52,405 nt of DNA from Candidatus Woesearchaeota archaeon CG10_big_fil_rev_8_21_14_0_10_33_12 (GTDB lineage Archaea > Nanobdellota > Nanobdellia > Woesearchaeales > CG1-02-33-12), in NCBI GenBank assembly GCA_002762865.1, contig PCYE01000017.1, positions 1 through 52,405 of the forward strand, given 5' to 3'. This document shows positions 868 through 36,162 of this stretch, piece by piece. The first letter of the stretch is position 1, and every line of letters begins with the position of its first letter. The position numbers and the translations under genes were made by a program. The notes under the pieces were generated by a model. It made no database searches and was not told where the DNA came from. It saw nothing but the letters and a program-made list of their open reading frames with translations.

Positions 868-875
868 TTTATATA
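868..875 (+). promoter_or_regulatory. archaeal TATA box (TTTATATA) with A-rich BRE-like stretch upstream of the 923 gene cluster
   Basis: TTTATATA lies 48 nt before ATG 923. A GAGG ribosome-binding site sits at 907-910. The box overlaps the 12-bp palindrome TATACTAGTATA (872-883). Confidence 0.4.
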
Positions 876-922
876 CTAGTATACATATTTGGTAAATTAA
901 GTAAAAGAGGTAAATGTAAAAA

Positions 923-1147: not shown

Positions 1148-1164
1148 AATAAGGAGGATAAAAA

Positions 1165-1788: not shown

Positions 1789-1829
1789 GCATTTTTTTCT
1801 TTTTTTAATAATTTTTTTAGGAGGAGGCA

Positions 1830-3436: not shown

Positions 3437-3492
3437 ATGATTTGCTGGATTTTTAGCTCTGATAATTTTAGTTGATAATCAACAACAAAAGG

Positions 3493-3500
3493 TTTATATA
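3493..3500 (+). promoter_or_regulatory. TATA box (TTTATATA) for the 3529/4085 transcription unit, flanked by TGATAAT repeats
   Basis: The TATA box ends 28 nt before ATG 3529, which suggests a leaderless or near-leaderless mRNA. GTTGATAAT occurs at 3471-3479 and 3509-3517, and TGATAAT also at 3460-3466. Confidence 0.4.
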
Positions 3501-3528
3501 TGAGTTATGTTGATAATAAACATAAACC

Positions 3529-6967: not shown

Positions 6968-6977
6968 ACAATTAAAA

Positions 6978-11177: not shown

Positions 11178-11899
11178 TCCTTATTAGCAGAAACAATCTC
11201 TGTATACAAGAGGAGGATATCATCATAAACATCTTTTTTATCTTCAACATCTAACTGGTTGTATTTTTCTTTAATCTTTACATACAGCTGCTTGCTCTTT
11301 TGGATTTTATTGTTATCAAGCATATCCAATGCCTTGATGAGCATTCCATGCACTTGCTCTAATTTGCTTTTTCCAAAATGTATTTTAAGTTTTGAGAGTA
11401 TAGGCTGTATTAAGATTAATAAAATATTTTGTTTCTTCCCAGATTCTTTTTTTTGCATTGCTGGTTTATTAATTCTAAGGAATTTTAGTATTTTATCAAG
11501 CCTTGTCTCTTTAACTTTCTGTTCATTAAATGTCAATTTTTCAAATAATTTTAAAAATTCATTTAATAATTTCTTTAACTCTGAATCAGGCAATCTTTCA
11601 TCGCTATATTCAACAACAGACAATTTTTTTAAGAAAAAAATTATTTTTTCTTTCAAATTTTTGTCTATCCTTCTTCTCTCTAACTCATTGCCTAACTCCT
11701 CAAATGTAAATTCATACTTAATCTTGAATAATTCAGCAAAAAAAAGCCTTATAACATGAAAAAATTGTATAAAATTGTCATCTTTATTTTTTTTAGAAAA
11801 ATGTTTTCTGAATGCCCCTATTCTTTTAAGAGTATTATTTTTTACTAGTTCAAGCCTGTCAGGTTTCTTTTTTTTTCTCTTGAAAAGATTTAAATACAT
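11174..11899 (-). CDS. soluble 241-aa protein paralogous to the cytoplasmic tail of the 960-aa adhesin (possible DUF4129-like helical domain)
   Basis: Colinear similarity to residues about 745-950 of ORF 4085..6967: LFKRKKKKPDRLEL vs LFKRKKKIVPEEL; FFAELFKIKYEFTFEELGNELERRRI vs FLNELLKIDYEFTYEEFCKEIEKHKI; LYVKIKEKYNQLDVEDKKDVYDDILLLY vs AYLRIKELYEELPVNKKRKIYKKIAGLY. TTTATATA on the minus strand (11925-11932) lies 25 nt upstream of the ATG. Confidence 0.7.
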   Translation of the reverse strand: MYLNLFKRKKKKPDRLELVKNNTLKRIGAFRKHFSKKNKDDNFIQFFHVIRLFFAELFKIKYEFTFEELGNELERRRIDKNLKEKIIFFLKKLSVVEYSDERLPDSELKKLLNEFLKLFEKLTFNEQKVKETRLDKILKFLRINKPAMQKKESGKKQNILLILIQPILSKLKIHFGKSKLEQVHGMLIKALDMLDNNKIQKSKQLYVKIKEKYNQLDVEDKKDVYDDILLLYTEIVSANKD

Positions 11900-12005: not shown

Positions 12006-12992
12006 ATGGATGAGAAAAAGTTTGCTGAAAAAATAATCAATAACCAGAAACTTATTGATAAAATAAAGAAAGAAATCTCAAATGTAGTTGTTGGCCAAGA
12101 AAAAGTGATTAATGGATTCTTAAGAGCTCTGTTATCAGATGGCCATGTGCTTGTAGAGGGCGTTCCTGGGCTTGCTAAAACACTTATTGTAAGGACATTA
12201 TCTAGTGTTATGGGCTGTGACTTTAGCAGGATTCAGTTCACTCCAGACCTTTTACCAACAGATATAATAGGTATAACAGCTTATGAAAGGGAAAAGGGTT
12301 TTTATGTTCTTAAGGGGCCAATATTCAGCAATTTTATTCTTGCTGATGAGATAAACAGGGCTCCTCCAAAAGTGCAGTCTGCCTTGCTTGAATGCATGCA
12401 GGAAAAACAGGTAACTATTGGGAAAGAAACATTTAATATGCCCCCACCTTTTTTTGTTCTTGCAACACAAAATCCATTGGAGCAGATAGGTGTTTATCCA
12501 CTGCCAGAGGCACAGATTGACAGGTTCTTGTTCAAGATTAACATAAGCTACCCAAACATTAAGGAAGAACAAATTATACTTAATAACAATATAACAATAA
12601 AGAAGTTTGATGATTTCAACTTAAAATCAATGGTATCTCCTGAAAAAATCTTGGAATTGCAGGCAGATGTAAAAAAGATTTACCTCGACAAGAAGATTGA
12701 AAAGTATATTATCCAGATAGTTGATGCAACAAGGAATCCTGATAAGTACAAGATTAAGCTAGGACATTATATAGAATGGGGTGCTTCCCCAAGGGCATCC
12801 ATTGGACTGTTTATTGCATCAAAGGCAGAGGCATTAATGCAGGGAAAAACATTTGTAACACCTCAATATGTAAAAGAGGTTGCATATGATGTTCTAAGGC
12901 ACAGGATTAGTTTAAATTATGAAGCGCAGTCAGAGAACATAAAGATTGAAGATGTAATCTCAGAGATTCTAGCAAGAGTGCCTGTTCCATAA
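12006..12992 (+). CDS. MoxR-family AAA+ ATPase
   Basis: Walker A GVPGLAKT and Walker B ILADEINRAPPKVQSALLECMQE. The FTPDLLPTDIIG and ATQNP...PEAQ(I)DRF motifs are characteristic of MoxR/COG0714. Confidence 0.9.
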   Translation: MDEKKFAEKIINNQKLIDKIKKEISNVVVGQEKVINGFLRALLSDGHVLVEGVPGLAKTLIVRTLSSVMGCDFSRIQFTPDLLPTDIIGITAYEREKGFYVLKGPIFSNFILADEINRAPPKVQSALLECMQEKQVTIGKETFNMPPPFFVLATQNPLEQIGVYPLPEAQIDRFLFKINISYPNIKEEQIILNNNITIKKFDDFNLKSMVSPEKILELQADVKKIYLDKKIEKYIIQIVDATRNPDKYKIKLGHYIEWGASPRASIGLFIASKAEALMQGKTFVTPQYVKEVAYDVLRHRISLNYEAQSENIKIEDVISEILARVPVP

Positions 12993-13006
12993 ATTATATT
13001 TAAAAA

Positions 13007-13894
13007 ATGGAAGAATTAAAGCTAAACTTAAAACCCCTTATTAAAAGATTGGAAGTACATACTAAAAGAGGGCTTACAAGCACTTTAACAGGCTCTTATA
13101 AAAGCACATTTAAAGGCAAGGGTCTTGACTTTGTAGGATACAGACCTTATGATATTGGTGATGACGCTAATATGATTGACTGGAAAGCAACCTTGAGGTC
13201 ACAGGATTTATTAGTTAAGATTCTTGTGGAGGAAAGGAATGTTAATATTGTCTTTTTAGTTGATGTTAGTTCAAGCATGTCTTTTGCATCCATTGATAAG
13301 CTGAAAAATGAGTATGCAGCAGAGCTTGTTGCCTCGTTGAGTTTTGCAGCTATACAGGCAGGTGATTCAGTTGGTTTGGTTATGTTTAATGATAAGATAG
13401 TCAAATTCCTTCCTCCAAATATGGGCAATAAGCAATATTTCATGATAATAAACTCATTGTCTAACCCAAAACTCTATGACGGAAAATTTGATTTTATAAA
13501 GGTGATAAATGATTTGATAAATTCTTTCAAAAAAGGGGCAATAATTGTTATTGTATCGGACTTTATTGGGCTTGGTAAAGATTGGGAAAATTATTTAAGA
13601 GCTGTATCTGAAAAATTTGAAGTAATTGGCATAATGGTTAGAGATCCTAGAGATTATGAAATACCAGCAGATGTTGGCCAGATTGTTATTTCAGACCCTT
13701 ATTCTGACAAAGAGGTATTGATAGATACAGCAAAAATAAAAGATGAATATGAATCTGTTGTTAAAGAGCAAATAAAACATATAAAAGAGACTTTTATAAA
13801 TTCAAAATCAGATTTTTTAGAGTTAAGAACAGATAAGCCTTTCCTAGATTATATAATAAAATTTTTTTTGATGAGGAATAAGAGGCGAATATGA
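13007..13894 (+). CDS. DUF58 family protein (vWA-like, MoxR partner)
   Basis: YRPYDIGDDANMIDWKATLRSQDLLVK signature, then VFLVDVSSSM (MIDAS-like). Lies directly downstream of moxR, the canonical gene order. Confidence 0.85.
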   Translation: MEELKLNLKPLIKRLEVHTKRGLTSTLTGSYKSTFKGKGLDFVGYRPYDIGDDANMIDWKATLRSQDLLVKILVEERNVNIVFLVDVSSSMSFASIDKLKNEYAAELVASLSFAAIQAGDSVGLVMFNDKIVKFLPPNMGNKQYFMIINSLSNPKLYDGKFDFIKVINDLINSFKKGAIIVIVSDFIGLGKDWENYLRAVSEKFEVIGIMVRDPRDYEIPADVGQIVISDPYSDKEVLIDTAKIKDEYESVVKEQIKHIKETFINSKSDFLELRTDKPFLDYIIKFFLMRNKRRI

Positions 13895-14847
13895 TTACAA
13901 TAAACTTTACTAACATTTATTACCTCTGGCTTTTGGTAAGCATACCTCTGCTTATTATAACCCACTTCTTTGTTTTAGGTTACCTTAAGAGAAGGGCAGT
14001 AAAGTTTGCTAATTTTGAAGCTATAAAAAGGGTTACCGGAACAAAATTTGATATAAAAAATACAAGAACAATATCAAAAAATATGTTTTTATTGATTGTA
14101 AGAATTTTTGTTTTATTGCTCCTTATATTCTCTGTAGCAGGCCCTGTCCTGTGGTACAGCGGCCAGGGCAGTGAGTTTGATTTTGTCCTTGCTATAGATG
14201 CTTCAAGTTCAATGTTGGCAGATGATTTTATACCGTACAGGCTTGATGCTGCGAGAAAGGCTTCTTCATTGTTTGTTGAAAGCTTAAAAGCAAGAACAAT
14301 GGTAGGCATTGTTTCTTTTGCAGGAACAAGCTTTGTTGAGCAGGATTTAATAGATAATATGAAAAAGACAGAAGAGGTTATTAATAATATAAGAATTAAG
14401 AGTGTTGGAGGAACTGATATAGGGGGTGCAATAACAACTTCAACAAACCTTTTGTTAAATCAGGAAAACTCAAGGGTTATTATCCTGCTGACAGATGGGC
14501 AGAGTACTGTTGGAACACCTCTCGATGTGGCTATTGAATATGCAAACAAAAATTATGTAACAATTAACACTATAGGCATTGGTACAGAAGAAGGGGGGAC
14601 ATTCATAAAAGGTGACTTGCTTTCAAAACTTGATGAGCCAACATTGATTGAAATAGCTCAAAAAACCGGAGGGAAATACTATAAGGCTGAGAATGAGGAA
14701 GAATTAGCCAATGCTTTTGATGATATCTCCTCCTCTACAGAAGAAAAAATACCTATAGACTTATCAATGGGTTTTATGATGACTGCCCTGGCACTATTGT
14801 TTCTTGAGTGGGGCATGATAAATACAAAATACAGAACATTGCCATAG
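13891..14847 (+). CDS. BatA-like membrane-anchored von Willebrand factor A protein
   Basis: 4-nt start/stop overlap with the DUF58 gene. Two N-terminal TM helices and one C-terminal TM helix. MIDAS motif LAIDASSSM plus GGTDIG and LLTDGQ. Confidence 0.85.
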   Translation: MITINFTNIYYLWLLVSIPLLIITHFFVLGYLKRRAVKFANFEAIKRVTGTKFDIKNTRTISKNMFLLIVRIFVLLLLIFSVAGPVLWYSGQGSEFDFVLAIDASSSMLADDFIPYRLDAARKASSLFVESLKARTMVGIVSFAGTSFVEQDLIDNMKKTEEVINNIRIKSVGGTDIGGAITTSTNLLLNQENSRVIILLTDGQSTVGTPLDVAIEYANKNYVTINTIGIGTEEGGTFIKGDLLSKLDEPTLIEIAQKTGGKYYKAENEEELANAFDDISSSTEEKIPIDLSMGFMMTALALLFLEWGMINTKYRTLP

Positions 14848-25079: not shown

Positions 25080-25236
25080 TTAAACCCCTCGATGAATAAA
25101 TCAAGTTATATAAAACAAATGAAGTTTATAAAACTTTTGGTTTGTTGCTACTTATAAATAGATTAATAATTTTAGGTTATGTTCCAGATTATTCAGTTTT
25201 ACAGCAAAAGTTTTTGTTTATGATTTTAAATGAAAA

Positions 25237-25249
25237 GTTTTAAATAAAT
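25237..25249 (+). promoter_or_regulatory. TATA-like box (TTTTAAATAAATA) for pta-ackA, leaderless geometry
   Basis: Centre lies about 27 nt upstream of ATG 25270. No SD sequence. Confidence 0.35.
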
Positions 25250-25269
25250 AAAAGAAAGTCAGTCTGATT

Positions 25270-26250
25270 ATGAGGGTTTTGGATAGTATAATAAAAAAGG
25301 CCGTAAAAAATCCCAAGAAAATTGTTTTTCCAGAAGCACTAGATGAAAGGATTTTAAGGGCTTCTGAGATTATTTTAAAGCAGGGGATTGCCAAGGTTAT
25401 TCTTCTGGGCAATCCAAAAGAAATCTTAAGAAAGATTGATGCACTTAAGCTAAACCTGAAGGGTGTTGAAATTATTAATCACCTTAAATCAGAAAAATTT
25501 GATTTTTATGCAGAAAAGCTTTTTGAGCTGAGAAAAGAAAAAGGCATAAGTTTGGATGATGCCAAGAAAATGCTGAAAAATGGGCTTTATTTCGGCACAA
25601 TGATGCTGCAGACTGGTGATGCTGATGGTCTCATTGGAGGGGCATCACATTCAACCGCAGACACAATAAGGGCTGCTTTCCAGATAATAAAAACAAAAAA
25701 AAGTGTCAAAAAAGTATCCGGGGCAATGCTCATGATAAAAGATGAAAAAGTTCTGCTCTTTGCTGACTGCGCTGTTATTCCAGATCCAACTTCAGATGAG
25801 TTAGCTGAGATAGCAAGACTATCAATTGAAACCTTTGAAAATCTTTTTAATAAAAAAGCAAAGGCAGGCATGCTCTCATATTCAACAGCTGGCTCTGGAA
25901 ACGGAGAGGATGTGGAAAGGGTAAGAGAGGCTGTAAAGATTGCCAGAAAATCCGGATTAAATGTTGTTGGTGAAATCCAGGCAGACGCTGCGCTTATAGA
26001 AAATGTCTGCGAAATAAAATGCCCTGAAATTAATTGCAGGGAAAAAATCAATGTGCTTGTGTTTCCAGGCCTTAACTCAAGCAATATCTCATACAAGCTT
26101 GTTGAAAGGTTAGGAGAGGTAAGGGCAGTTGGACCAATATTGCAGGGCCTTAAAAAGCCAATGAACGATCTTTCAAGGGGATGCTCTGTTCAGGATATTG
26201 TTGACCTAACTGCAATAACAGTTGTGCAGGCCCAGAATATAAAAAAGTGA
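25270..26250 (+). CDS. pta: phosphate acetyltransferase (short PTA_PTB form)
   Basis: 326 aa. Motifs KIVFPEALDERIL, GDADGLIGGASHSTADT, VFPGLNSSNISYKL and PILQGLKKPMNDLSRG are typical of Pta. Confidence 0.9.
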   Translation: MRVLDSIIKKAVKNPKKIVFPEALDERILRASEIILKQGIAKVILLGNPKEILRKIDALKLNLKGVEIINHLKSEKFDFYAEKLFELRKEKGISLDDAKKMLKNGLYFGTMMLQTGDADGLIGGASHSTADTIRAAFQIIKTKKSVKKVSGAMLMIKDEKVLLFADCAVIPDPTSDELAEIARLSIETFENLFNKKAKAGMLSYSTAGSGNGEDVERVREAVKIARKSGLNVVGEIQADAALIENVCEIKCPEINCREKINVLVFPGLNSSNISYKLVERLGEVRAVGPILQGLKKPMNDLSRGCSVQDIVDLTAITVVQAQNIKK

Positions 26251-26254
26251 TAGA

Positions 26255-27436
26255 ATGAAAATATTAGTATTAAACTCTGGCTCAAGTTCTCTGAAATTCC
26301 AGCTTTTTGAGATTAAAGAAAAAGAAGATGTTCTGATTAAGGGAATTGCTGACGGCATTGGTTTAAAAGATTCTTTTATTTTATATGAAATAAAAAACAA
26401 AATAAAGAGGATAAAAAAGAAAATTAAAAATCATAGGGAAGCATTAAAGGATGTTCTTGATATAATTTTGGCTGAGGATATAATCAACTCATTTAATGAA
26501 ATAAAAGCAATAGGCCACAGGGCAGTTCATGGCGGCGAGGATTTTAAAGAGCCTGTTATAGTCAATGATAAGGTTATGAAAAAGATAGATGAGTTAAGCA
26601 GTCTTGCTCCATTGCATAACCCTGCAAACCTTATTGGGATGAAAGTATGCAAAGAGCTTTTGTCTAAGATAAAACAGGTTGCTGTTTTTGACACTGGATT
26701 TCATAGTAGTATGCATGAAAAAGCATTTATCTATGGGATTCCATATACATATTATAAAAAATATGGCATAAGGCGCTATGGTTTTCACGGGACATCGCAT
26801 CATTATGTTTCAAAAAAAGCAGCTGAAATCTTAAACAAAGATTATAAAAAATTAAAGATAATATCCTGCCATCTTGGCAATGGCTCAAGCATTGCTGCTG
26901 TTATGAACGGCAAGAGCATTGATACCTCAATGGGATTTACTCCCCTTGAAGGAATTGTCATGGGGACAAGGTCTGGCGATATTGACCCTGCAATAATTCC
27001 TTTTTTGATGAAAAAGGAAAAGCTTTCTGTCAAGGAAATTGATGACATGTTAAATAAAAAATCAGGCTTATTCGGAATATCCGGGATAAGCCCTGATGTC
27101 AGGGTTTTATGGTCCAGTGAAAAAAAAGGAAATAAAAAAGCAGGCCTTGCACTTGATATTCTTGGGTATAGGATTGCAAAATACATTGGAGCTTACATAG
27201 CTGCAATGAACGGTGTTGATGCAATTGTGTTTACAGCAGGAATAGGGGAAAACGCATTCTATATAAGGGAGAGGGTTCTGAAGCATTTTGAATATCTTGG
27301 CCTTAAGATTAATAAAACAAGAAACAAAAACAATGAAACAATAATCTCAGCAGATAATTCTAAAATCAAGGCCATGGTAATCCCAACAAACGAAGAACTC
27401 CAGATAGCAAGAGAGACCTTTGAGCTGGTAAAGTAA
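26255..27436 (+). CDS. ackA: acetate kinase
   Basis: MKILVLNSGSSSLKFQLF, GHRAVHGG, FDTGFH, RYGFHGTSH, CHLGNGSSI and VFTAGIGEN are canonical AckA motifs. The gene starts 4 nt after the pta stop. Confidence 0.95.
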   Translation: MKILVLNSGSSSLKFQLFEIKEKEDVLIKGIADGIGLKDSFILYEIKNKIKRIKKKIKNHREALKDVLDIILAEDIINSFNEIKAIGHRAVHGGEDFKEPVIVNDKVMKKIDELSSLAPLHNPANLIGMKVCKELLSKIKQVAVFDTGFHSSMHEKAFIYGIPYTYYKKYGIRRYGFHGTSHHYVSKKAAEILNKDYKKLKIISCHLGNGSSIAAVMNGKSIDTSMGFTPLEGIVMGTRSGDIDPAIIPFLMKKEKLSVKEIDDMLNKKSGLFGISGISPDVRVLWSSEKKGNKKAGLALDILGYRIAKYIGAYIAAMNGVDAIVFTAGIGENAFYIRERVLKHFEYLGLKINKTRNKNNETIISADNSKIKAMVIPTNEELQIARETFELVK

Positions 27437-27443
27437 TTAAAAA

Positions 27444-28505
27444 TTAATAATTTAACTTGTATCTTAGGATTGCAGCTATCCCGCCAAGGCCGTCCAGCTT
27501 CTTGCCGCCGTCATGATCTGAGCCGATTATATTAACAGTGCCTTTCATGCTTTCTGTGTTTTTCATCATCGGGTCTATTTTTTCATAAGTTTTGTTTAAT
27601 CTTGTCTTTTGTATTAGGCCGTCTGTAACCAATAGTTTTTCAACAGCCCCTGCAGTAACAGCTTTTTCTGTTTCTTTAAGGCCATAAACAGCAAGGCTGT
27701 TTTTTGAGATTTCCTCTAATAACAATTCAACAAGTTTCAGCTCTTTTGCAACCCTCTGCTGGCTCAGGACATTTTTTACTTCAGGCCTTTTCAGGACTTC
27801 ATCAATTGCCTCTTTTCCAGAGCAGGAGCATGTTGCCAATGTGATTTTTTTCTTGATTTCATCATTCTTTATGTTTTTCATCAAATCCTCTTTCCAGAAT
27901 GCAGGGCTTGCCAGTATTATATTTTCAATTTTATATCGCTCAGCATAATCATAAAGCTTGTTTACAACATCACCATAAAAATTTCCTGTTTTTGCTTTCA
28001 GGTCTGCTTTTTTCTCAACATCTCCCTTAATCTCAGACAGCAGGCTAAATCCCTGTTTTTTTAGAAGGCCAAAGCATACTTCATCCCTGTCAAGAACGCA
28101 GATAAGTATTTTCTTGGTTTCAACTGATGCCTGTTTTATTTTTTCAATCTGAAAGCTTAGCCATTGCTTTTTTATAACAGTAATAACAGTTCCTGGCTCA
28201 AGGTTGAATGTATGATAAGAACCTTTTTGTATGTCTTCCGGACCCTGCGTTATAGTTCCGGAAACCCTTAAAATTGAAGAATATTCATGAAATTCAACAT
28301 TTTCAACCCTTATTTCAATGAAAATAGTTTTCTTAACAATATTCACCTTTCTTTGGTCGCTCTCGCCAATTTTTATTTTCCTTACAGTCTTGCCTCTAAC
28401 AAGATCTTCTGGCTCTATTATATGGCTTAAACACCAAAGGTCATCCATATTCTCTATTTTGAATTTTGCTTCTCCTTTCTTCAAATCAAAGGATATTTGT
28501 TTCAT
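27444..28505 (-). CDS. pelA: Pelota (Dom34) ribosome-rescue factor
   Basis: 353 aa. N-terminal ...KIENMDDLWCLSHII, with central and C-terminal eRF1-like domains (LLVTDGL...). Typical of archaeal Pelota. Confidence 0.85.
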   Translation of the reverse strand: MKQISFDLKKGEAKFKIENMDDLWCLSHIIEPEDLVRGKTVRKIKIGESDQRKVNIVKKTIFIEIRVENVEFHEYSSILRVSGTITQGPEDIQKGSYHTFNLEPGTVITVIKKQWLSFQIEKIKQASVETKKILICVLDRDEVCFGLLKKQGFSLLSEIKGDVEKKADLKAKTGNFYGDVVNKLYDYAERYKIENIILASPAFWKEDLMKNIKNDEIKKKITLATCSCSGKEAIDEVLKRPEVKNVLSQQRVAKELKLVELLLEEISKNSLAVYGLKETEKAVTAGAVEKLLVTDGLIQKTRLNKTYEKIDPMMKNTESMKGTVNIIGSDHDGGKKLDGLGGIAAILRYKLNY

Positions 28506-28565
28506 ACCTCTAAAATAGGAAAACTTATATATATTAAGTTATCTATTTAAGACAGGTGATTATAA

Positions 28566-29777
28566 ATGAGTTTACATATAAAAAGCAAAAAAGCTAACGG
28601 CAATACTATTACTAGCGCTGGTGGTGCAATGGGATTTATATCCCTTATGGTTGGATTGATTATATTATATATCATATTTCTGCCACCAGGGGAAAGGGCA
28701 AAATTATTAGGGGAAAATGAGAGTGTTGAAGAAGAAGATAATGTTAGTGTAGAAACTGAAGAAAATGTTTTATTGCTTGAGTATCCAGGAAGGATTGATT
28801 ACCTGAAAGAAAAAGAGTATGAGCATGATATCTCGCCTTTTTATTTATATAAAACAACAAATGCAGAGGAGCTTGATACAATCAATCCATTTATAATAAG
28901 GCATGGCCTATTTGATGAGGTAATAAAAGATGTTCCTTTTAAGATATCAGACTTGAAAAATACAGAAAATGTTTTATTATCATTTACAGCAAAAAAGTAT
29001 AATGGATTACTAACTATAAAATTAAATGATGTTAATATATTTGAGAGCGAGATAACAACATCAAATCCAAAGCCAATAAAACTCAAAAAAGATTATCTTG
29101 AAGAGGATAATATGTTAGAGTTTAGTGTTTCCGGAACAGGAGCTAAGTTCTGGTCAACAAATATTTACAGCCTTGATGACATTAGGATAGTTGGTGATGT
29201 TGCTGATATAAGCAGGCAGGAAAGCAAAAACATATTCTTCATAAGCGAGAATGAAAAACTAAATCTTGAGATAGCCAAACTCAGATTTTTGCCTCAATGC
29301 AAACCAGAGGATGTTGGGAAGCTTGATATTTTAATTAATTACCAAAATGTTTTTTCTGGCGTGCCTGATTGCGGGGGCATAAATGTTTATAGTTTTTCAA
29401 CAAATGTTTTGTATACTGGGGATAATAACATTGTTTTTAAAACAGATAAAGGCTCTTACCTTATTGAGCAGATAAAGGTGCAGACAAGCCTTAGAGAGCT
29501 AATATACCCCACCTATTATTTTGAGATTAATGAAACAACAATTGAAAAAATTAAAGGAGACACATATGATGCTGTACTCTCTATTGAATTTGTTGATGAC
29601 AAAAAAAACAAGGAAATGAATCTCAATATAAACAACAGAATGACTTCTGTCGATACAGAGGAAGCAAAATATTTGAAAAAAATAGATGATTACCTAAGAG
29701 AAGGCAACAACTTCATAAAAATAGAGCCATTGTCAATGCTTGATATTATTGAGCTGAAAGTGGAGCTTGAAAAATAA
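28566..29777 (+). CDS. N-terminally anchored extracellular protein with three internal beta-sandwich-like repeats (403 aa)
   Basis: TM helix GAMGFISLMVGLIILYIIFL. Three repeats follow the pattern L.I.(L/I)N...(I/V)F/.......L..G.N.I.F.....Y.I..I.V (LLTIKLNDVNIFESE..., LDILINYQNVFSGV..., MNLNINNRMTSV...). Confidence 0.55.
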   Translation: MSLHIKSKKANGNTITSAGGAMGFISLMVGLIILYIIFLPPGERAKLLGENESVEEEDNVSVETEENVLLLEYPGRIDYLKEKEYEHDISPFYLYKTTNAEELDTINPFIIRHGLFDEVIKDVPFKISDLKNTENVLLSFTAKKYNGLLTIKLNDVNIFESEITTSNPKPIKLKKDYLEEDNMLEFSVSGTGAKFWSTNIYSLDDIRIVGDVADISRQESKNIFFISENEKLNLEIAKLRFLPQCKPEDVGKLDILINYQNVFSGVPDCGGINVYSFSTNVLYTGDNNIVFKTDKGSYLIEQIKVQTSLRELIYPTYYFEINETTIEKIKGDTYDAVLSIEFVDDKKNKEMNLNINNRMTSVDTEEAKYLKKIDDYLREGNNFIKIEPLSMLDIIELKVELEK

Positions 29778-29805
29778 TTTTTTATTTTTCTAAAAAGAGG
29801 GATTT

Positions 29806-32241
29806 ATGGCAAGTGCAAAGGATGTTGGGAAAAATTTTTTAAGTTGGATGAATAAAGGTTTGACTGCTAATCCTTCAATAACCCTTTTTATTGTTATTAG
29901 TCTTGTTATTCATTTAATTGATGTTTTTTCAGACTTCAGAAATACTAATTTTAGAATATTTGCTTATTTAGTATTAACAATAGCTGCATGGCTTAGCCTG
30001 TTTAAAGACCAAGAAAATCCAGGAGTTATTAATATTGCCAACATTAAAGTCCCTGTTATATTATCATCAATTGCAATATTTGCTCCTTATTTAGGGGGAG
30101 TTCTCCCTTTTTTAGGCAGTTCACAATCATTTCAGACAGCAATTATATTTTTTCCAGCTTGGGTACTGTTCCTTTGTTTTGCAATGGGGCAAAATTGGTT
30201 TATTATTATATGCAGGTGGATTATAGTATTATTATTATTGTTTCTTGTTTTTCCGACTATTATTAATGGATTTATAAATGATTTGAGAATAGGTGAAATT
30301 GAAACAGGCATTAATGTGCAGCAAACAATCTCAAATACTATGAGGGATTTAAGCTATGGAGTTAATAGTGCCTTAACAAATATTGGAAAAGCATGGAAAG
30401 ATGCCTATAATAGCCTTATAAAAACAGCCACAGGTGATTATTACACTGGAAAGGTTGATGAGTATGAGGATGAGCCAGTGGGTGTTTATCTTGAGGACCT
30501 GCAGGCAGCCGATTCAAAATTCTTTGAGGGAGAGAAAATAACAGTCTGGGCTGTTCTAAAAGCAAAAACATTGGGGGATAAAGAAATAAACATAAATGTT
30601 TCATGCTATGCAAAAGAAGGGAATAAAAAAGTAGGAGGGAGTATAATTCCCCAGAATGAATTTAACATAGCAACAGAAGAAGAAGAATATCTTGACTGTA
30701 CATTTGATAAGCTTAATCCTGGCAAGATGGATGTAACTTTTAATGCAGAATTTAATTTTGAGACAATGGCTTACCTTAAGACATATTTTATGGATAAGGA
30801 AAGTCTAAGGGCTTTGACAAGAGAGGGAATTGATGTATTCAGCCATTACAAAATCAGCAATATAAACCCAATAGCAATATATACAAATGGTCCTGTAGGC
30901 ATAGGAATGAGAACAGCTGAGCCTTTGCCGGTAGGGGTTTACAGTGATAAAGAAAATATCCCTTTTTTCTTTGGAATAACCATAGAAAACAACTGGGAAG
31001 GAACAATCAAAAAAGTGACAGGTTTGGAAATTCAGGTTCATGACAGCTTAGAGCTGACAAACTGTGACCATGTGTTTGAGTTCAAGGAAAATGAGGATGG
31101 TTATAATATATATAGCCTTGTTCCTGACAAGAGAACAGAAGACATAAAAACAAGAAAATTCCATTCTATCCAGTGCAGGTTAAACCCTGTTGACCCAAAG
31201 AGCCTGCTTGGCAATGAGCCAATAACAACAAGATATTTTAGGGTTACAGCCAGCTATGTTTATGAGCTTGAAAAATCAGTGCCAGTCGAGGTTGAAAAAG
31301 TAGAAGACTACAAAAGCCCAGAAGAAGAGGTAATGACTTCAGATGAGAAAGCACAAGAATTTAAGGATAAACTGAATGAGATGGTAGATGGAAAAACAAA
31401 TAATGAGATTGCATGCAATGTAATAAGCAAATGCAGTGATTATGATGCAAACTATTATGACAAGCTCGGCTTTAATGATCAGACTTGGTGTGATACAAAC
31501 CCTTGTAATTTAGACTGTTATTCAGCTTTCGAGAAAAGTGGTGATGAAGTTTCCTATGATTCATGCAAGGAATGCCCATATTATATGACTATTCAAGATC
31601 TACCAAGGGAAGATTACTGCAATATATACCTTGCCGAAGATTATTGTGAAAAAGATATTTGTAATTTTAGAGATTATAATATTGAATGCCAATGGTATGA
31701 TAATAAATGTATGATGGGTTTTCTCAAAAAAGAGGAATGGAAAGATTATGATGAAAGTGAAGTAAAAGCTAAACTAAGGGAGGCTGCTCAAGAAAATAAT
31801 ATCCCCCCAGAAATTTTATTAGGAGTAGCTTATACTGAAACTGGAGGCACATTTAATAAAGATTTGATTGGTGATGAAGGTGATAGTATAGGTTTAATGC
31901 AAATAAATTTTGGTTTGCATAAGAATGAATGTAATCTTGAAAGTAAAGATGAATTGTTTGACATAAATAAAAACATAGAGTGTAGTATTAAGATATTAAA
32001 AAACCATTATAATAATTTTTGTTCAGTATCAGGAAGTGAAAGATTTAGAAATAAAGTGGATGATGAAGAAAATGGATGTATAAATCCTATTTTTAATGAA
32101 AAATATAAATCATACTCCTATGAATATGGTTGTTGGAATATGGCATTAAGAGCTTATAACGGTTTTGGATGTCAGAATGAAATAATCGCTGGATATGTTG
32201 AGAGGGTTAGAAACAACATAAAAGAACAGGGATTTGATTAA
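29806..32241 (+). CDS. 811-aa polytopic membrane protein with extracellular beta-rich domain, Cys-rich linker and C-terminal family-1 lytic transglycosylase (SLT) domain
   Basis: About 5-6 N-terminal TM helices (residues about 25-150). C-terminal motifs AYTETGG (candidate catalytic Glu, nt 31837-31839), GLMQIN (31891-31908) and RAYNGFG (32152-32169) correspond to SLT motifs ES / GLMQ / AYNxG. Confidence 0.7.
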   Translation: MASAKDVGKNFLSWMNKGLTANPSITLFIVISLVIHLIDVFSDFRNTNFRIFAYLVLTIAAWLSLFKDQENPGVINIANIKVPVILSSIAIFAPYLGGVLPFLGSSQSFQTAIIFFPAWVLFLCFAMGQNWFIIICRWIIVLLLLFLVFPTIINGFINDLRIGEIETGINVQQTISNTMRDLSYGVNSALTNIGKAWKDAYNSLIKTATGDYYTGKVDEYEDEPVGVYLEDLQAADSKFFEGEKITVWAVLKAKTLGDKEININVSCYAKEGNKKVGGSIIPQNEFNIATEEEEYLDCTFDKLNPGKMDVTFNAEFNFETMAYLKTYFMDKESLRALTREGIDVFSHYKISNINPIAIYTNGPVGIGMRTAEPLPVGVYSDKENIPFFFGITIENNWEGTIKKVTGLEIQVHDSLELTNCDHVFEFKENEDGYNIYSLVPDKRTEDIKTRKFHSIQCRLNPVDPKSLLGNEPITTRYFRVTASYVYELEKSVPVEVEKVEDYKSPEEEVMTSDEKAQEFKDKLNEMVDGKTNNEIACNVISKCSDYDANYYDKLGFNDQTWCDTNPCNLDCYSAFEKSGDEVSYDSCKECPYYMTIQDLPREDYCNIYLAEDYCEKDICNFRDYNIECQWYDNKCMMGFLKKEEWKDYDESEVKAKLREAAQENNIPPEILLGVAYTETGGTFNKDLIGDEGDSIGLMQINFGLHKNECNLESKDELFDINKNIECSIKILKNHYNNFCSVSGSERFRNKVDDEENGCINPIFNEKYKSYSYEYGCWNMALRAYNGFGCQNEIIAGYVERVRNNIKEQGFD

Positions 32242-32245
32242 GAAG

Positions 32246-33178
32246 ATGAATATTAAGCAAAATAAAAATACTGGAATTATTTTATTAATTATAACTACAT
32301 TAATTTTCTCAGGATGCATACAAAATCCTTTTGTAAAAACAACAACGCAGGATGACTTCAGAACAGGAAGCCAGGGAATACTAATGGAATTCTTGACTAA
32401 TGCCCCTCCAAGTGAGACATATGAAGAGTACCCATTCCAGGTAGGGGTTATTTTAGAAAATGTTGGAGCATATGATACCAAAAATGGTTTTATTTCTTTC
32501 ACAATTGAAGAGGATTATATGGAGCTAATGAACCAAAATGATGATGTTGTTAGCTTTAGCCTAAAGGGCAAGTCTGTTTCCCTCCCAACAGGAGACCAGT
32601 TAGTAAAAATAATAAAAGCAAATACAAAAAAAATAGACGAACAAAGTGAAAAACATGATTCAACAGTATTAGCAAATGTGTGCTATCAATACCAAACAAA
32701 AAAAGATGTTACAATCTGTATAGATACAGATATTTATAATCTTAAAGAAATGCAAAAAGTATGTAATATTAAAGACATAACCTTAACTCCTCAGGGAGCT
32801 CCTGTTGCAATAACAAAGATAGAGAGCGAGATGCTTCCAGCAGAGGATGATAACCTAATAAAGCCAGCATTTAAAATTCAGATAAAGAATGTTGGCAATG
32901 GGGAGGTTATTGACAAGGGTAAGATATCTGATATATGCTCATCAGAGCCAGTAGATTATAAGGAATTAAATACAGTTGATATAAAAGTCATGCTTTCCAA
33001 TGAAGAGCTTGAATGCAAGCCAACACCTTTAAAGCTAAAATCTAATGAAGATGAGGTTAGGTGCATTCTTGAGAAAGGCATTCCAAAAGACAGGGCAACC
33101 TATACTAGTCCATTGACAATTGAGCTGGACTATGGCTATACATACTCTATATCAACTAAGGTTGTAATAAGAAAATAG
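32246..33178 (+). CDS. lipoprotein, paralog 1 of a three-member family
   Basis: Lipobox LIFSGC. Shared family motifs: RTGSQGILMEF..APPSETY, CYQYQT......CI, GAPVAITKIE, LTIELDYGYTYSIS. I prefer ATG 32246 over the track's TTG at 32234. Confidence 0.65.
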   Translation: MNIKQNKNTGIILLIITTLIFSGCIQNPFVKTTTQDDFRTGSQGILMEFLTNAPPSETYEEYPFQVGVILENVGAYDTKNGFISFTIEEDYMELMNQNDDVVSFSLKGKSVSLPTGDQLVKIIKANTKKIDEQSEKHDSTVLANVCYQYQTKKDVTICIDTDIYNLKEMQKVCNIKDITLTPQGAPVAITKIESEMLPAEDDNLIKPAFKIQIKNVGNGEVIDKGKISDICSSEPVDYKELNTVDIKVMLSNEELECKPTPLKLKSNEDEVRCILEKGIPKDRATYTSPLTIELDYGYTYSISTKVVIRK

Positions 33179-33225
33179 TTTTTAATAGAAAGTTTTAAAT
33201 ACAAATCAAGGGATTATATAACAAA

Positions 33226-34173
33226 ATGAGAAAAATTATATTGGTAATCCTTATATTATTCTTGTTCTTAAGTTTTGGATGCACCACAAAAACAGGAGAA
33301 ACTGATGTTGATTACAGAACTGGGACTCAGGGAATTGTTATGAATTTCATGACAGATATACCTCCAGCCAAGATGTATGATGATATGCCAATTGACCTTG
33401 TTGTAGAGATAAAAAACAAAGGGGCTTATCCACAGCCAACAAGCATTACTGGCTGGGCAATTATCACAACCTCTGGCACAAATGGGATTGGAACCTTTTA
33501 TTTAAGTGGTTTTGATGACACCCTTATAATGGGCATGCCAAAACAGATGTCAGTTTCTAACCTTGAGGGGAAAAACCCTTACAACCTGGAAGGAGGTTAT
33601 GATGTGATTTCATTTAGGGGCAATATAATAAATTTTGACAGCAGGAATATTGATAGTTATAATGCAAACTTTCTTGTTACATCATGCTATAATTATGAAA
33701 CAATAACTTCCCAAACAATCTGTGTTGATCCAGAGCCCTATTCAGCAAAGGAAAAAACAAAAGTTTGTACCATCCCACCTAGTTATTCTTTATCAGGAGG
33801 CCAGGGTGCTCCTGTTGCTGTAACAAAAATAGAAGAGGCTGTGCTCTCAAACAAAATACAATTCAAGGTATATATAAAGAATCTTGGAGACGGCAAGATT
33901 GTTGACAAGAATAGGCTTAATATTGACTGCCCATATTCGCTGGACTATACAAACCTCAATAAGGTTTATGTAAGCGGCCGTGTTTCTGGCTACAGCCTCA
34001 GCTGCAAGCCAAATAACCCAATTAATTTAATAAATGGAGAGGGAAGTGTTGTATGCACTGTTCCAAAACCAGCAATGAGCAAGTCAGCATATACCACCCC
34101 ATTGCAGGTTAAATTAGAGTATGGCTATTCATCATCAATACAAAGAAGTGTTGAAATATTAAACACACCCTGA
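33226..34173 (+). CDS. lipoprotein, paralog 2
   Basis: Lipobox LSFGC. Motifs: RTGTQGIVMNF..IPPAKMY, CYNYET......CV, GAPVAVTKIEE, LQVKLEYGYSSSIQ. Confidence 0.65.
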   Translation: MRKIILVILILFLFLSFGCTTKTGETDVDYRTGTQGIVMNFMTDIPPAKMYDDMPIDLVVEIKNKGAYPQPTSITGWAIITTSGTNGIGTFYLSGFDDTLIMGMPKQMSVSNLEGKNPYNLEGGYDVISFRGNIINFDSRNIDSYNANFLVTSCYNYETITSQTICVDPEPYSAKEKTKVCTIPPSYSLSGGQGAPVAVTKIEEAVLSNKIQFKVYIKNLGDGKIVDKNRLNIDCPYSLDYTNLNKVYVSGRVSGYSLSCKPNNPINLINGEGSVVCTVPKPAMSKSAYTTPLQVKLEYGYSSSIQRSVEILNTP

Positions 34174-34228
34174 TTAACAGAAAAATTTATATAATCAAAT
34201 AATGTATTAAAAACCGGAGGCTTGAAAA

Positions 34229-35152
34229 ATGAAAAATTATGTTAATATAATATTAATATTGGCTTTACTGATTTTTGCATCTGGATGCGGAAAAGAAACA
34301 GCTCCTTCTAAGGAAAGCCCATTTATTGGCGGAACAACAGGTCTTTTGATAAGTTATGATGAGGGTGCACCTCCTGCAGAGGTCTATGATGGAGGAGACT
34401 TTGATTTTGAAGTTGTTGTCAAGCTAAAGAATGATGGCGAACAAAGTGTAAGCAAGGATAAGGTGGAGGTAAGCCTTAGTGGAATTGACCCAAGGGAATT
34501 TGGATTATCAGATTCAAATTTTGTTAAACACCCTGATGAGGACTTAGAAAAGACTTACAAGGATTCTGAGGGAAACAAGATAGAAGGAACAACAACTTGG
34601 GTGGTATTTTCTGGATTAAATCACCGTGAAAGCTTAATTGGGAACACTCCTTATACAGTAAGGGCAGAGGTATGTTATAATTATGCAACAGATATAAACT
34701 CAATGCTTTGCATAAAAAAAGGCCAGATTGATAAAGAAGGAGATATCTGTAAGATTACTGAGGAAAAAGCTGTTTTTAACTCAGGCGGACCAGTACAGGT
34801 TACAAGCTTTAAAGAAACTCCTAAAGGGAGTAATAAGTTTAACTTTCAGTTTACAATAAAACCTAAGGGAAATGGGGGAATATACAAAAAAGATTCTAAC
34901 TGCGAGTATACAAGGGCAAATGAAAACAAGATTTTTGTGAGCGTTGATACAGGAATGAGTGGCTTAACCTGTGTTGGTTTAGATGGTGGCGCTACAAGTG
35001 GTTATATAACTTTATATAGCGGAGAACGTACGATAACCTGCACCCAGGATACAGAAACAAACACAAACTTTGAAAAACCAGTTAATATAAAATTAGAATA
35101 TGATTATGAAGAAGATATATCAACACAGGTTTTGGTAAAACATTCTACTTAA
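34229..35152 (+). CDS. lipoprotein, paralog 3 (more divergent)
   Basis: GGAGG SD and lipobox FASGC. Motifs: [24 protein letters not shown]......[27 protein letters not shown]. Confidence 0.65.
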
Positions 35153-36114
35153 TTTTCTTTTTTTATTCCTATTAAAGTAACCTGACTTAGAAGCGCTTCT
35201 AGCTGCAAAAATTCGTCAGAGCCTTCAACCATCCTGAACTCTATCTCGCCGCATTTGTCTATTAAAAACATCTTTTTTCTTGGCTCAATATCAAGGTTTA
35301 ATATTTCTTTCTGAATCTGCTTTATTACATCAAAGCCAGACAATCCATACTCAAGCATTATATCCAATAATTTGTTTCTTGCATCCTTGAATTTATTTTT
35401 TAAGGCAAGGTTTAATACTTCATCTATTTCTTTTGGCCTTGCAACAGAGGCCATTGAATAAATAAGTTCCTCTGTTATCTCATTTGAGAGTGCTGCACAG
35501 CTTTGCAGTATGTTTTCCATCCTCCTGCAGTCCCCGTTGCTGATTTCATATAATGCTTCTTTTGCTTCATCATTCATTTTCAATGATTCTGATTTTACAA
35601 TACTCTCAATGATCTCTATAATATCTTTTTTAATTAAAAACTTAAACCTAAATATAGCACATCTTGATTGTATTGGTTCTATAATTTTACTGCTGTAGTT
35701 GCAGCTGAGAATAAATCTGCATGTGCGAGTGTAATTCTCCATTGTCCTTCTTAAAGCCTGCTGTGCTTCTTTTGTCAAGGCATCTGACTCATCAAGGTAG
35801 ATTATCTTAAACGGCACATCGCCAATTGCCCTTGTCCTGGCAAAATCCTTTACCTTGTTTCTTACAACATCAATCCCTCTTTCATCAGAGGCATTTAATT
35901 CAAGAATATTCTCGTGCCAGCTGTCACCAAACAATTTTTTTGATATTACCAAAGCCAGGCTTGTCTTGCCTGTCCCTGCTGGCCCAGAAAACAATAAATG
36001 AGGCATATTTTTTTGCTTAACAAATGCCTTTGCCTTTTTGACTATTTCCTTTTGGCCTTTTATATCAGAGAATTCTTTTGGCCTATATTTTTCAGTCCAG
36101 ATTGTGTTTTCCAT
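35149..36114 (-). CDS. rfcS: replication factor C small subunit
   Basis: [16 protein letters not shown], Walker [10 protein letters not shown], Walker [12 protein letters not shown], and the SRC motif QSRCAIFRF. Confidence 0.95.
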
Positions 36115-36162
36115 AAAGGAAGCTAAATAAGCTTTATTTAAATATTTATCCCAAAAAAAGAA

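What the first reader, a model, noticed from the sequence alone, without database searches (positions are those of the whole stretch)
31768..32206. Family-1 lytic transglycosylase (SLT) domain in an archaeon, fused to a multi-pass membrane protein
The C-terminus of the 811-aa protein shows the three SLT hallmarks in the correct order: AYTETGG (E-S/T catalytic motif), GLMQIN and RAYNGFG. It is preceded by a Cys-rich linker. Archaea lack murein, so a membrane-tethered, outward-facing murein-cleaving domain suggests one of three things: attack on or attachment to bacterial cells, activity on pseudomurein, or a repurposed glycan-binding fold. The fusion of an N-terminal polytopic domain with a cell-wall hydrolase also recalls the VirB6/VirB1-like logic of conjugation systems. 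No VirB4/VirD4 ATPase is present.
Basis: partly seen in the sequence, partly recalled or inferred. Interest (0 to 1): 0.6.

Follow-up and report, generated by a model that had tools for sequence, protein, structure and literature searches.

The report
Swappable bacterial-wall-cutting tip on archaeal protein
A tiny symbiotic-type (DPANN) archaeon carries a genuine bacterial-cell-wall-cutting enzyme domain at the outer tip of a membrane protein; such domains were already known in this group, but here the domain is an exchangeable cassette on a conserved five-gene surface module, which points to bacteria as its targets.

Summary
Residues 645-811 of the 811-aa protein (29806-32241 +) form a real SLT/GH23 domain. 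It matches Pfam PF01464 at 36 bits (cut-off 21.3).

The organism is a DPANN archaeon (sources name relatives Nanoarchaeota/Woesearchaeota) with a 1.05-Mb genome and no Mur ligase. SLT domains in this group are already published (Castelle 2021, Vigneron 2022, Strock 2025), so the finding as written is not new.

Three results I did not find in the papers I searched:
- The protein is a single-copy scaffold (5 TM helices, two Ig-like domains, Cys-rich linker), found in 195 of 401 sampled genomes of the phylum.
- It always sits in the same five-gene operon.
- Its C-terminus varies. Orthologues carry SLT, NlpC/P60, M15, M23, muramidase plus amidase, a 3D domain, a weak GH73-like domain, or nothing.

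A sister contig is 88% identical in DNA on both flanks, yet the 563-nt SLT segment is replaced by a GH73-like module.

Best reading: an outward-facing, exchangeable tip enzyme against bacterial murein. No evidence supports the VirB1/VirB6 conjugation analogy. Activity and target are untested.

The parts
28566..29777 (+). Partner gene U: 403-aa protein with one N-terminal TM helix (aa 21-39) and an ectodomain of unknown fold
   Evidence: ORF and hydropathy. One orthologue sits directly upstream of the scaffold gene in 24 of 25 loci. No Pfam, NCBIfam or PDB match.
29806..32241 (+). Scaffold-SLT gene, 811 aa: TM bundle, long helix, two Ig-like domains, Cys-rich linker, SLT domain
   Evidence: ORF; 44 homologues; full-length AF2 model, pLDDT 72.
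29872..30282 (+). Membrane anchor, aa 23-159: five predicted TM helices. Inferred topology is N-terminus in, C-terminus out.
   Evidence: Hydropathy peaks and model helices H23-41, 47-64, 77-99, 107-126 and 131-159. The N-terminal tail has 3 K/R against 1 D/E. The topology is inferred, not shown.
30481..31296 (+). Conserved core, aa 226-497: two Ig-like beta-sandwich domains
   Evidence: Model pLDDT about 80-92 here. Foldseek hits are generic Ig tandems: integrin alpha, the AglB C-terminal domain and RbmA. This segment finds orthologues in 195 of 401 genomes of the phylum.
31306..31737 (+). Cys-rich linker, aa 501-644 (12 Cys), ending in ...CQWYDNKCMMGFL, the junction at which C-terminal modules are exchanged
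   Evidence: Cys positions. Low-confidence model region. Similarity to P0006 ends at aa 640. The repeat unit is duplicated in P0003, P0010 and P0011, which lack a catalytic module.
31738..32241 (+). SLT / GH23 cassette, aa 645-811 plus stop
   Evidence: Pfam. PDB profile hits MltC, EtgA and Slt70. AF2 pLDDT 92.7. All top 50 Foldseek hits are lytic transglycosylases or goose-type lysozymes. DNA similarity to the sister contig L028 is lost over window 31738-32300 only. dN/dS is 0.23 against the orthologue in L029.
31837..31839 (+). GAA codon of Glu678, the predicted catalytic acid
   Evidence: The residue is invariant in alignment A4. It aligns with the MltC residue that reads Q in the 4cfo entries. 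It lies at the end of helix 28-38 of the domain model.
31891..31908 (+). GLMQIN (SLT motif II)
   Evidence: M and Q are invariant in alignment A4.
32149..32169 (+). RAYNGFG (SLT motif III)
32234..33178 (+). Lipobox protein L1 (314 aa; ...FSGC)
   Evidence: Paralogue of L2 at E 6e-44. Three such genes follow the scaffold gene in the surveyed loci that extend far enough.
33226..34173 (+). Lipobox protein L2 (315 aa; ...SFGC)
34229..35152 (+). Lipobox protein L3 (307 aa; ...ASGC)

Best explanation
The last 167 residues of the 811-aa protein are an intact GH23 / family-1 lytic-transglycosylase-type domain.

The domain is held outside the cell on a stalk. Five TM helices anchor the protein. A long helix, two Ig-like domains and a disulfide-rich linker then project the enzyme away from the membrane.

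The protein is the second gene of a conserved five-gene surface operon. The order is a TM-anchored protein, this scaffold, then three paralogous lipoproteins. The operon is vertically inherited in this order of DPANN archaea.

The enzyme tip is an exchangeable cassette. The archaeon makes no murein or pseudomurein itself, so the tip most likely cuts the glycan strands of bacterial peptidoglycan where the archaeon touches a bacterium. That would open the wall of a host or prey cell, or help the archaeon to attach.

Shown: domain identity, conserved catalytic residues, operon conservation, cassette exchange, and purifying selection on the cassette. Inferred: outward topology, enzymatic activity, murein as the substrate, and the biological purpose.
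For: Domain identity:
- Pfam 36.1 bits against a cut-off of 21.3.
- Profile hits to MltC, EtgA and Slt70, with the Glu aligned to the MltC residue that is Q in the 4cfo entries.
- AF2 pLDDT 92.7 with the Glu at a helix end.
- All top 50 Foldseek hits are lytic transglycosylases or g-type lysozymes.
- The Glu is kept in 25 of 30 SLT modules on this scaffold.
- dN/dS is 0.23, so the domain is under purifying selection.

Extracellular location:
- Five TM helices and a net-positive N-terminus.
- 22 Cys after the TM region.
- Lipobox partner proteins.

Murein as the target:
- Orthologous scaffolds carry Peptidase_M15_4 at 42 bits.
- NlpC/P60 plus SLT.
- Peptidase_M23 at 63 bits.
- Muramidase PF11860 at 130 bits plus Amidase_2 at 90 bits, and a 3D domain.
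- A GH73-like module.
- The own genome (93.7% complete) has no Mur_ligase_M.

Cassette exchange:
- Flanks are 88.3% and 87.5% identical to L028, with no similarity across 31738-32300.
- The protein breakpoint is at aa 640.
- Core and SLT identities are incongruent: P0009 91%/42%, P0013 56%/62%.
- dS is 0.67 in the cassette against 0.22-0.29 in the scaffold.

Conserved module:
- The U-S-L-L-L order is the same in every one of the 25 surveyed loci as far as each locus extends.
- Synteny with Pelota and RFC.

Literature: the same inference was drawn for DPANN SLT proteins in general (PMC8204110, PMC9723730, PMC12352652).
Against: - No biochemical, expression or microscopy data exist.
- Many orthologous frames are about 430-700 aa, too short for a catalytic tip. 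The module's core job is therefore something other than wall cutting, and it is unknown.
- Five of the 20 long orthologues have tails with no recognisable domain.
- A few SLT modules have lost the Glu, so binding alone may suffice in some lineages.
- GH23 also contains chitinases (CAZy knowledge). A GlcNAc polymer cannot be excluded for this particular cassette.
- The topology rests on sparse charges and is predicted only.
- No bacterial partner of this archaeon is known.
Confidence: 0.65

Rival explanations
1. The SLT domain is an adhesin, not an enzyme. It binds peptidoglycan strands to hold the archaeon on a bacterial surface without cutting them.
For: Three orthologues have T or G at the catalytic column, and two more have the Glu shifted by one residue. 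Four of these five also have a degraded GLMQ motif. Castelle 2021 proposed attachment as one role (PMC8204110).
Against: In this protein all three motifs and the Glu are intact. The Glu is kept in 25 of 30 modules. The alternative modules in orthologues are catalytic families.
Confidence: 0.12
2. The domain acts on a non-murein glycan: a GlcNAc-rich polymer of the archaeon itself, or of an archaeal host (chitin-like polymer, S-layer glycan or pseudomurein).
For: GH23 includes chitinases (CAZy knowledge). The genome's second SLT protein lies directly downstream of a membrane GT2 glycosyltransferase whose sequence contains a QxxRW-type motif. Known DPANN hosts are archaea.
Against: Orthologues carry MurNAc-L-Ala amidase, M15, M23 and NlpC/P60 modules at the same position, and these need murein peptide stems. 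Pseudomurein lacks MurNAc and is beta-1,3 linked (textbook knowledge). The genome has no Mur-type ligase, so it has no pseudomurein of its own.
Confidence: 0.12
3. The protein is the wall-piercing component of a conjugation or type IV secretion-like channel (a VirB6-like polytopic part fused to VirB1-like SLT).
For: Polytopic N-terminus plus SLT. The NlpC/P60 plus SLT pairs in two orthologues resemble Gram-positive T4SS hydrolases such as PrgK and TcpG (the resemblance is from memory). Weak VirB4-like and VirD4-like hits exist elsewhere in the genome.
Against: No ATPase, relaxase or coupling protein is in the locus in any surveyed genome. The gene order is fixed between housekeeping genes across distant genomes. 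It is single copy in most genomes with a match. The VirB4-like and VirD4-like hits sit on other contigs and barely reach the cut-off.
Confidence: 0.04

Closest known systems
Family-1 lytic transglycosylases of bacteria (E. coli MltC 4c5f, Slt70 1qsa, MltE 2y8p; EPEC EtgA 4xp8); Pfam PF01464, CAZy GH23
   Same: Same fold and the same three motifs. The catalytic Glu is at the same alignment column and at the end of a helix.
   Different: The host is archaeal. The motif reads E-T rather than E-S. There are six Cys inside the domain. The domain sits at the C-terminus of a 5-TM, Ig-domain scaffold instead of on a lipoprotein or periplasmic protein. Sequence identity is only about 10-20%. Only weak Bacillus megaplasmid hits were found among plasmids and none among phages, so no close bacterial donor was seen in those two collections.
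[quoted passage not shown] 2021, PMC8204110; GH23 genes in Vigneron et al. 2022, PMC9723730)
   Same: Same lineage, same domain and the same proposed role. SLT domains 36-41% identical to this one occur in 2000-3000-aa proteins.
   Different: This one is 811 aa and sits on a different, order-wide scaffold inside a fixed five-gene operon. The cassette exchange and the range of alternative hydrolases at this position are not described in those papers, as far as I read them.
Archaeal peptidoglycan hydrolases that kill bacteria (Strock et al. 2025, PMC12352652)
   Same: Archaeal proteins with bacterial-type PG hydrolase domains. That study found them prominent and diverse in Nanoarchaeota.
   Different: Those were defined as a catalytic domain plus a known cell-wall-binding domain, and the tested ones were secreted haloarchaeal M23 enzymes. 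Here the enzyme is membrane-tethered and has no known wall-binding domain.
Polymorphic toxins and modular wall-degrading effectors (CdiA-CT, Rhs, T6SS and T7SS peptidoglycan hydrolase effectors) and modular phage lysins
   Same: A conserved N-terminal delivery part, a sharp junction and interchangeable C-terminal modules. The swap is seen between near-identical backbones.
   Different: No variable immunity gene follows the cassette; the next gene is the conserved lipoprotein. An organism without murein would not need one. The protein appears anchored rather than secreted, and no secretion-system genes are linked to it.
VirB1-type and Gram-positive T4SS hydrolases (VirB1, PrgK, TcpG)
   Same: An SLT domain, sometimes paired with an NlpC/P60- or CHAP-type peptidase, on a membrane-anchored protein.
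   Different: No T4SS context was found. The locus is chromosomal, vertically inherited and syntenic.

Membership tests
SLT domain / family-1 lytic transglycosylase (PF01464, GH23) | Profile match above the curated threshold | tested here: met
   36.1 bits against 21.3, E 5.2e-9; 38 bits in the genome scan.
SLT domain / family-1 lytic transglycosylase (PF01464, GH23) | Motif I: catalytic Glu followed by Ser or Thr, at the C-terminal end of a helix | tested here: met
   E678-T679. It aligns with the MltC residue that is Q in the 4cfo entries. It lies at the end of helix 28-38 of the domain model. It is invariant in A4.
SLT domain / family-1 lytic transglycosylase (PF01464, GH23) | Motifs II (GLMQ) and III (AYNxG) | tested here: met
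   GLMQIN at aa 696 and RAYNGFG at aa 782. M and Q are invariant in A4.
SLT domain / family-1 lytic transglycosylase (PF01464, GH23) | Lysozyme-like alpha-helical fold | tested here: met
   pLDDT 92.7. The top 50 Foldseek hits are all MltE, MltC, MltF, Slt or g-type lysozymes, with TM 0.5-0.59 and probability 1.0. Foldseek E-values are only about 2e-3.
SLT domain / family-1 lytic transglycosylase (PF01464, GH23) | Non-hydrolytic cleavage of MurNAc-GlcNAc that gives 1,6-anhydroMurNAc (as opposed to lysozyme-type hydrolysis) | not testable with these tools
   This needs muropeptide analysis. Sequence cannot separate a lytic transglycosylase from a g-type lysozyme mechanism here.
DPANN murein-like transglycosylase proteins (fam00969 of PMC8204110) | An SLT-domain protein of Pacearchaeota or Woesearchaeota that clusters with that family | tested here: inconclusive
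   The lineage and domain fit. Related SLT domains occur in 2000-3000-aa proteins. The family's member list was not available to compare, and this scaffold is much shorter.
VirB1/VirB6-type conjugation or T4SS component | Linkage to VirB4 or VirD4 ATPases and other T4SS genes | tested here: not met
   None is in the locus in any of the 25 loci surveyed. The only weak matches in the genome lie on contigs C6 and C47.
VirB1/VirB6-type conjugation or T4SS component | Location on a mobile element, with patchy distribution | tested here: not met
   The position between Pelota and RFC is fixed in distant genomes. Most genomes with a match have a single one; 195 of 401 genomes match.
Polymorphic-toxin-like modular effector | Conserved N-terminal part, sharp junction, variable C-terminal module | tested here: met
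   87% identity up to aa 640, then unrelated sequence. DNA flanks are 88% identical with a 563-nt unalignable cassette. At least seven hydrolase families occur at this position.
Polymorphic-toxin-like modular effector | A cognate immunity gene immediately downstream that varies with the toxin module | tested here: not met
   The next gene is the conserved lipoprotein L1 in both the window and L028, and no extra ORF lies between them.

The most novel reading that the evidence does not exclude
The five-gene module is a conserved host-contact apparatus of Woesearchaeales-type DPANN archaea. Its C-terminal cassette would be matched to the cell wall of the partner: murein hydrolases of different bond specificity where the partner is a bacterium, and other or no modules where it is not. 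Cassette swapping would be the way these archaea retarget between bacterial wall chemotypes. If so, the cassette type would be a genomic read-out of host identity for a large uncultured archaeal group, and would mark many of its members as episymbionts or predators of bacteria.
Probability: 0.3. Interest if true: 0.8.

Novelty: new variant of a known kind. Interest (0 to 1): 0.58.

Why it matters
The hosts and lifestyle of Woesearchaeota and Pacearchaeota-type DPANN archaea are a long-standing open question, because none of these lineages is in culture with a known partner.

Murein hydrolase domains in their genomes have been read as hints of bacterial hosts. Until now they were reported only as scattered 'large SLT proteins'.

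This follow-up shows that the hydrolase sits at one defined position of a conserved, single-copy surface module. It also shows that very close relatives have exchanged it for a different wall hydrolase. That gives a concrete, testable object:
- one short ectodomain to express and assay;
- one scaffold to localise on cells;
- one locus to survey across genomes against co-occurring bacteria.

The SLT domain on its own is not new.

Tried and rejected
- **The search for related loci** in genome contigs with the SLT alignment failed because no stretch was conserved enough. I therefore built no named phylogeny and cannot say which bacteria, if any, donated the domain.
- **The listing of cluster members** gave almost no organism names.
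- **Word-based search with the SLT region alone** found only four close relatives.
- **tblastn against phages** found nothing. Against plasmids it found only weak Bacillus megaplasmid SLT proteins, 33-36% identical over half the domain.
- **Foldseek with the full-length model** returned only generic Ig-tandem hits.
- **Partner proteins.** Profile-profile comparison found no homology between the scaffold core, the upstream protein family and the lipoprotein family. Pfam, NCBIfam and PDB profile searches gave nothing for the partner proteins.
- **MAG contamination by a bacterial contig** is rejected. Archaeal housekeeping genes flank the locus, and the same arrangement recurs in more than 20 genomes.
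- **Own murein or pseudomurein as substrate** is rejected, because the 93.7%-complete genome has no Mur_ligase_M.
Full report
**1. What is at the coordinates**

The window is low-GC (about 33%) and archaeal. Pelota lies at 27444-28505 (-) and the RFC small subunit at 35149-36114 (-). A two-subunit PheRS and a class-I Tyr/Trp-type tRNA synthetase are also present. Relatives of the proteins studied here are named Nanoarchaeota, Nanoarchaeia or Woesearchaeota by their sources. The assembly has 1.05 Mb in 53 contigs and is 93.7% complete.

ORF 29806-32241 (+) encodes 811 aa. Glu678 is the GAA codon at 31837-31839.

**2. Is it really an SLT domain?**

Yes. Several independent lines agree:
- Pfam PF01464 matches aa 658-740 at E 5.2e-9 and 36.1 bits, against a gathering cut-off of 21.3.
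- A profile of 12 SLT domains from this protein family finds E. coli MltC (4c5f, E 3.4e-8), the T3SS-associated EtgA (1.9e-7), Slt70 (1.6e-5) and MltE, followed by goose-type lysozymes.
- In that alignment the family's invariant Glu falls on the MltC residue that reads E in 4c5f and Q in the 4cfo/4cfp/4chx entries. From memory, this is the E217Q inactive mutant.
- The domain folded alone gives pLDDT 92.7 and pTM 0.88, with the Glu at the C-terminal end of helix 28-38.
- All 50 best Foldseek hits in the PDB are lytic transglycosylases (MltE, MltC, MltF, Slt, phage enzymes) or g-type lysozymes, at TM 0.5-0.59.

By the classical family-1 criteria (E-S, GLMQ, AYNxG; textbook knowledge) the domain qualifies. 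The only variation is Thr for Ser after the Glu. Whether it is a true lytic transglycosylase or a hydrolytic muramidase cannot be read from sequence.

**3. The rest of the protein**

The full-length model (pLDDT 72) and hydropathy give this layout:
- five TM helices in aa 23-159;
- a long helix, aa 171-208;
- two Ig-like beta-sandwich domains, aa 226-330 and 356-497, with pLDDT of about 80-92;
- a poorly modelled Cys-rich linker, aa 501-644, with 12 Cys;
- the SLT domain.

Foldseek on the whole model finds only generic Ig tandems.

The N-terminal tail is net positive. Of the 24 Cys, 22 lie after the membrane part. The neighbouring genes encode lipobox proteins. I therefore infer an N-in, C-out topology with the enzyme outside the cell. 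This is a prediction, not a demonstration.

**4. Genomic context: a fixed five-gene module**

The gene is flanked upstream by a 403-aa single-TM protein (U). Downstream lie three paralogous lipobox proteins of about 310 aa (L1-L3; L1/L2 E 6e-44).

The same order, U-scaffold-L-L-L, usually between Pelota and RFC, is present in loci whose scaffold is only 26-30% identical. It holds in all 25 loci I surveyed, as far as each locus extends.

The Ig-like core finds an orthologue in 195 of 401 sampled genomes of the phylum. That covers nearly all families of the same order, with weaker matches in the same class, and most genomes with a match have a single one.

This is a vertically inherited chromosomal module, not a mobile element. 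U, the scaffold core and the L proteins are not detectably related to each other. None of them matches Pfam, NCBIfam or the PDB.

**5. The C-terminus is a variable position filled by wall hydrolases**

Among the 44 homologues from the protein database:
- 17 match SLT.
- P0044 carries Peptidase_M15_4 (42 bits).
- P0022 carries NlpC/P60 (22 bits, just under its cut-off) followed by SLT.
- P0006 and P0017 carry a weak Glucosaminidase/GH73-like module. It scores 24-25 bits against a cut-off of 30.2, and the best PDB hit is the pneumococcal LytB glucosaminidase at E 0.04.
- P0003, P0010 and P0011 end after a duplicated Cys-rich repeat and have no catalytic module.

Among 20 long orthologues taken from species-representative genomes:
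- 10 match Pfam SLT above its cut-off: L008, L012, L013, L014, L015, L017, L019, L021, L022, and L026 within 0.2 bits of the cut-off.
- L010 (G070) has NlpC/P60 (25.8 bits) in Pfam plus an SLT module found with my own family HMM.
- L020 has an SLT module detectable only with my own HMM.
- L018 (G203) has Peptidase_M23 at 63 bits.
- L027 (G284) has Muramidase PF11860 at 130 bits plus Amidase_2 at 90 bits.
- L025 (G230) has a 3D domain at 27.7 bits.
- Five have no recognisable domain.

Many other orthologous frames are about 430-700 aa and too short for any tip.

So one position on one scaffold has been filled repeatedly by enzymes that cut the glycan, the amide and the peptide bonds of murein.

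**6. The exchange is recent and precise**

P0006 is 87% identical to the window protein over aa 1-640, then unrelated. At the DNA level:

| Window segment | L028 segment | Identity |
|---|---|---|
| 25198-31737 | 347-6866 | 88.3% |
| 31738-32300 (563 nt) | 6867-7504 (638 nt) | no detectable similarity |
| 32301-36158 | 7505-11350 | 87.5% |

Its left junction is the ...WYDNKC... end of the Cys-rich repeat.

Even between SLT-bearing orthologues the cassette and the backbone disagree. P0009 is 91% identical in the core but 42% in SLT, while P0013 is 56% in the core but 62% in SLT.

Against the closest SLT-bearing orthologue (L029), dN/dS by region is 0.20 (TM), 0.15 (Ig), 0.16 (linker) and 0.23 (SLT). 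The domain is thus under purifying selection. Its dS is 0.67, against 0.22-0.29 in the scaffold. That indicates an older divergence of the cassette than of its backbone, consistent with recombination. Cassette GC is 0.29, against 0.34 for the scaffold.

**7. What the enzyme most likely does**

The genome has no Mur_ligase_M match. The same search registers in 13 of 14 control genomes. Self-made murein or pseudomurein is therefore unlikely to be the substrate.

Pseudomurein lacks MurNAc, is beta-1,3 linked and has no D-amino-acid stem (textbook knowledge). Several of the alternative modules depend on murein-specific bonds: MurNAc-L-Ala amidase, M15, M23 and NlpC/P60. The common denominator of everything found at this position is bacterial peptidoglycan.

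My best reading, at about 0.65, is an outward-facing, membrane-tethered murein-cleaving tip. The archaeon would use it where it contacts a bacterium.

Three rivals remain:
- **Binding only.** This is supported by loss of the Glu in L012 (T), L017 (G) and L020 (T), and by a shifted Glu in P0040 and P0041. It does not apply to this copy, whose motifs are intact.
- **Another glycan.** GH23 includes chitinases.
- **A conjugation-like channel.** The context gives it no support.

Because many orthologues lack any tip, the conserved module must have a more basic surface role that remains unknown. The hydrolase is an accessory to it.

**8. Comparison with what is known**

SLT domains in this lineage are published. 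Castelle et al. [quoted passage not shown] Vigneron et al. 2022 use GH23 genes to argue for 'vampiristic' Woesearchaeota. Strock et al. 2025 report that peptidoglycan hydrolase homologues are prominent and diverse in Nanoarchaeota, and show killing activity for haloarchaeal enzymes. A 2024 survey notes the same domain in three DPANN MAGs.

The exhaustive protein search agrees that this SLT subtype is shared with giant 2000-3000-aa proteins, the few named ones being Woesearchaeota or Nanoarchaeota. It found no close bacterial, plasmid or phage relative.

In the papers I searched I did not find three things:
- the order-wide scaffold;
- the fixed five-gene operon;
- the cassette exchange among at least seven hydrolase families.

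**9. Verdict**

As stated, the finding is a new member of a known kind. With the scaffold and the cassette behaviour it becomes a new variant of a known kind, of moderate interest.

I had seen the conserved cluster independently and tested it.

**Limits**
- There is no activity, expression or localisation evidence.
- There is no named phylogeny.
- The partner proteins were not folded.
- The genome sample is partial.
- The GH73 call, and the NlpC/P60 call in P0022, are below the Pfam cut-offs.

Noticed in passing
own genome, contig C46:19525-19752 (locus L007:1018-2286 +): A second SLT-domain protein: 422 aa, N-terminal TM anchor, PF01464 at 25.7 bits, with motifs LLLESRFNP, GIAQM and YNLGYAG. 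It lies directly downstream of, and overlaps, a membrane GT2 glycosyltransferase whose sequence contains a QxxRW-type motif (QTLRW). This SLT might act on a glycan made by the archaeon itself.
   Followed up: partly
loci L012, L017, L020 (genomes G221, G298, G397) and proteins P0040, P0041: The SLT modules on these orthologous scaffolds have T or G at the catalytic Glu column, or the Glu shifted by one residue. Four of the five also have a degraded GLMQ motif. They carry a long extra C-terminal extension. They may be pseudo-enzymes that only bind the wall.
   Followed up: partly
window 31564-31710 (aa 587-635); proteins P0003, P0010, P0011: The linker is built from a Cys-rich repeat of about 60 aa (CP.Y.TIQ..P..DYC..YL.EDYCE.D.C.F....IEC.WYDNKC). 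The repeat is present once here and duplicated in tip-less orthologues. Its end is the junction at which cassettes are exchanged, so it may act as the recombination or folding boundary.
   Followed up: partly
own genome, C6:5991-6434 (-) and C47:9987-10223 (-): Weak VirB4-like (PF03135, 18.7 bits, in a 1025-aa frame) and VirD4-like (PF02534, 20.8 bits, in a 788-aa frame) matches lie on other contigs. They are unlinked to the SLT locus.
   Followed up: no
window 12006-14847: A MoxR-type AAA ATPase, a DUF58 protein and a BatA/VWA protein form an operon. It is inferred from the equivalent genes and Pfam hits in the syntenic locus L001. It lies upstream of two very large Ig-repeat surface proteins at 4085-6967 and 6978-11177.
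   Followed up: no
locus L028:12255-13118 (-): The sister contig that carries the GH73-like cassette has an rve-type integrase or transposase about 5 kb downstream of the module, at a point where collinearity with the window ends.
   Followed up: no
window 28566-28690 and alignment A6: The partner protein U has a strongly conserved N-terminus (M..KKAQ..AG.AA.LIALIAGLIILYILFLPP.ER) with invariant Q11, A21, Y35 and P40. It could be a processed, pilin-like signal rather than a plain anchor. I did not test this.
   Followed up: no
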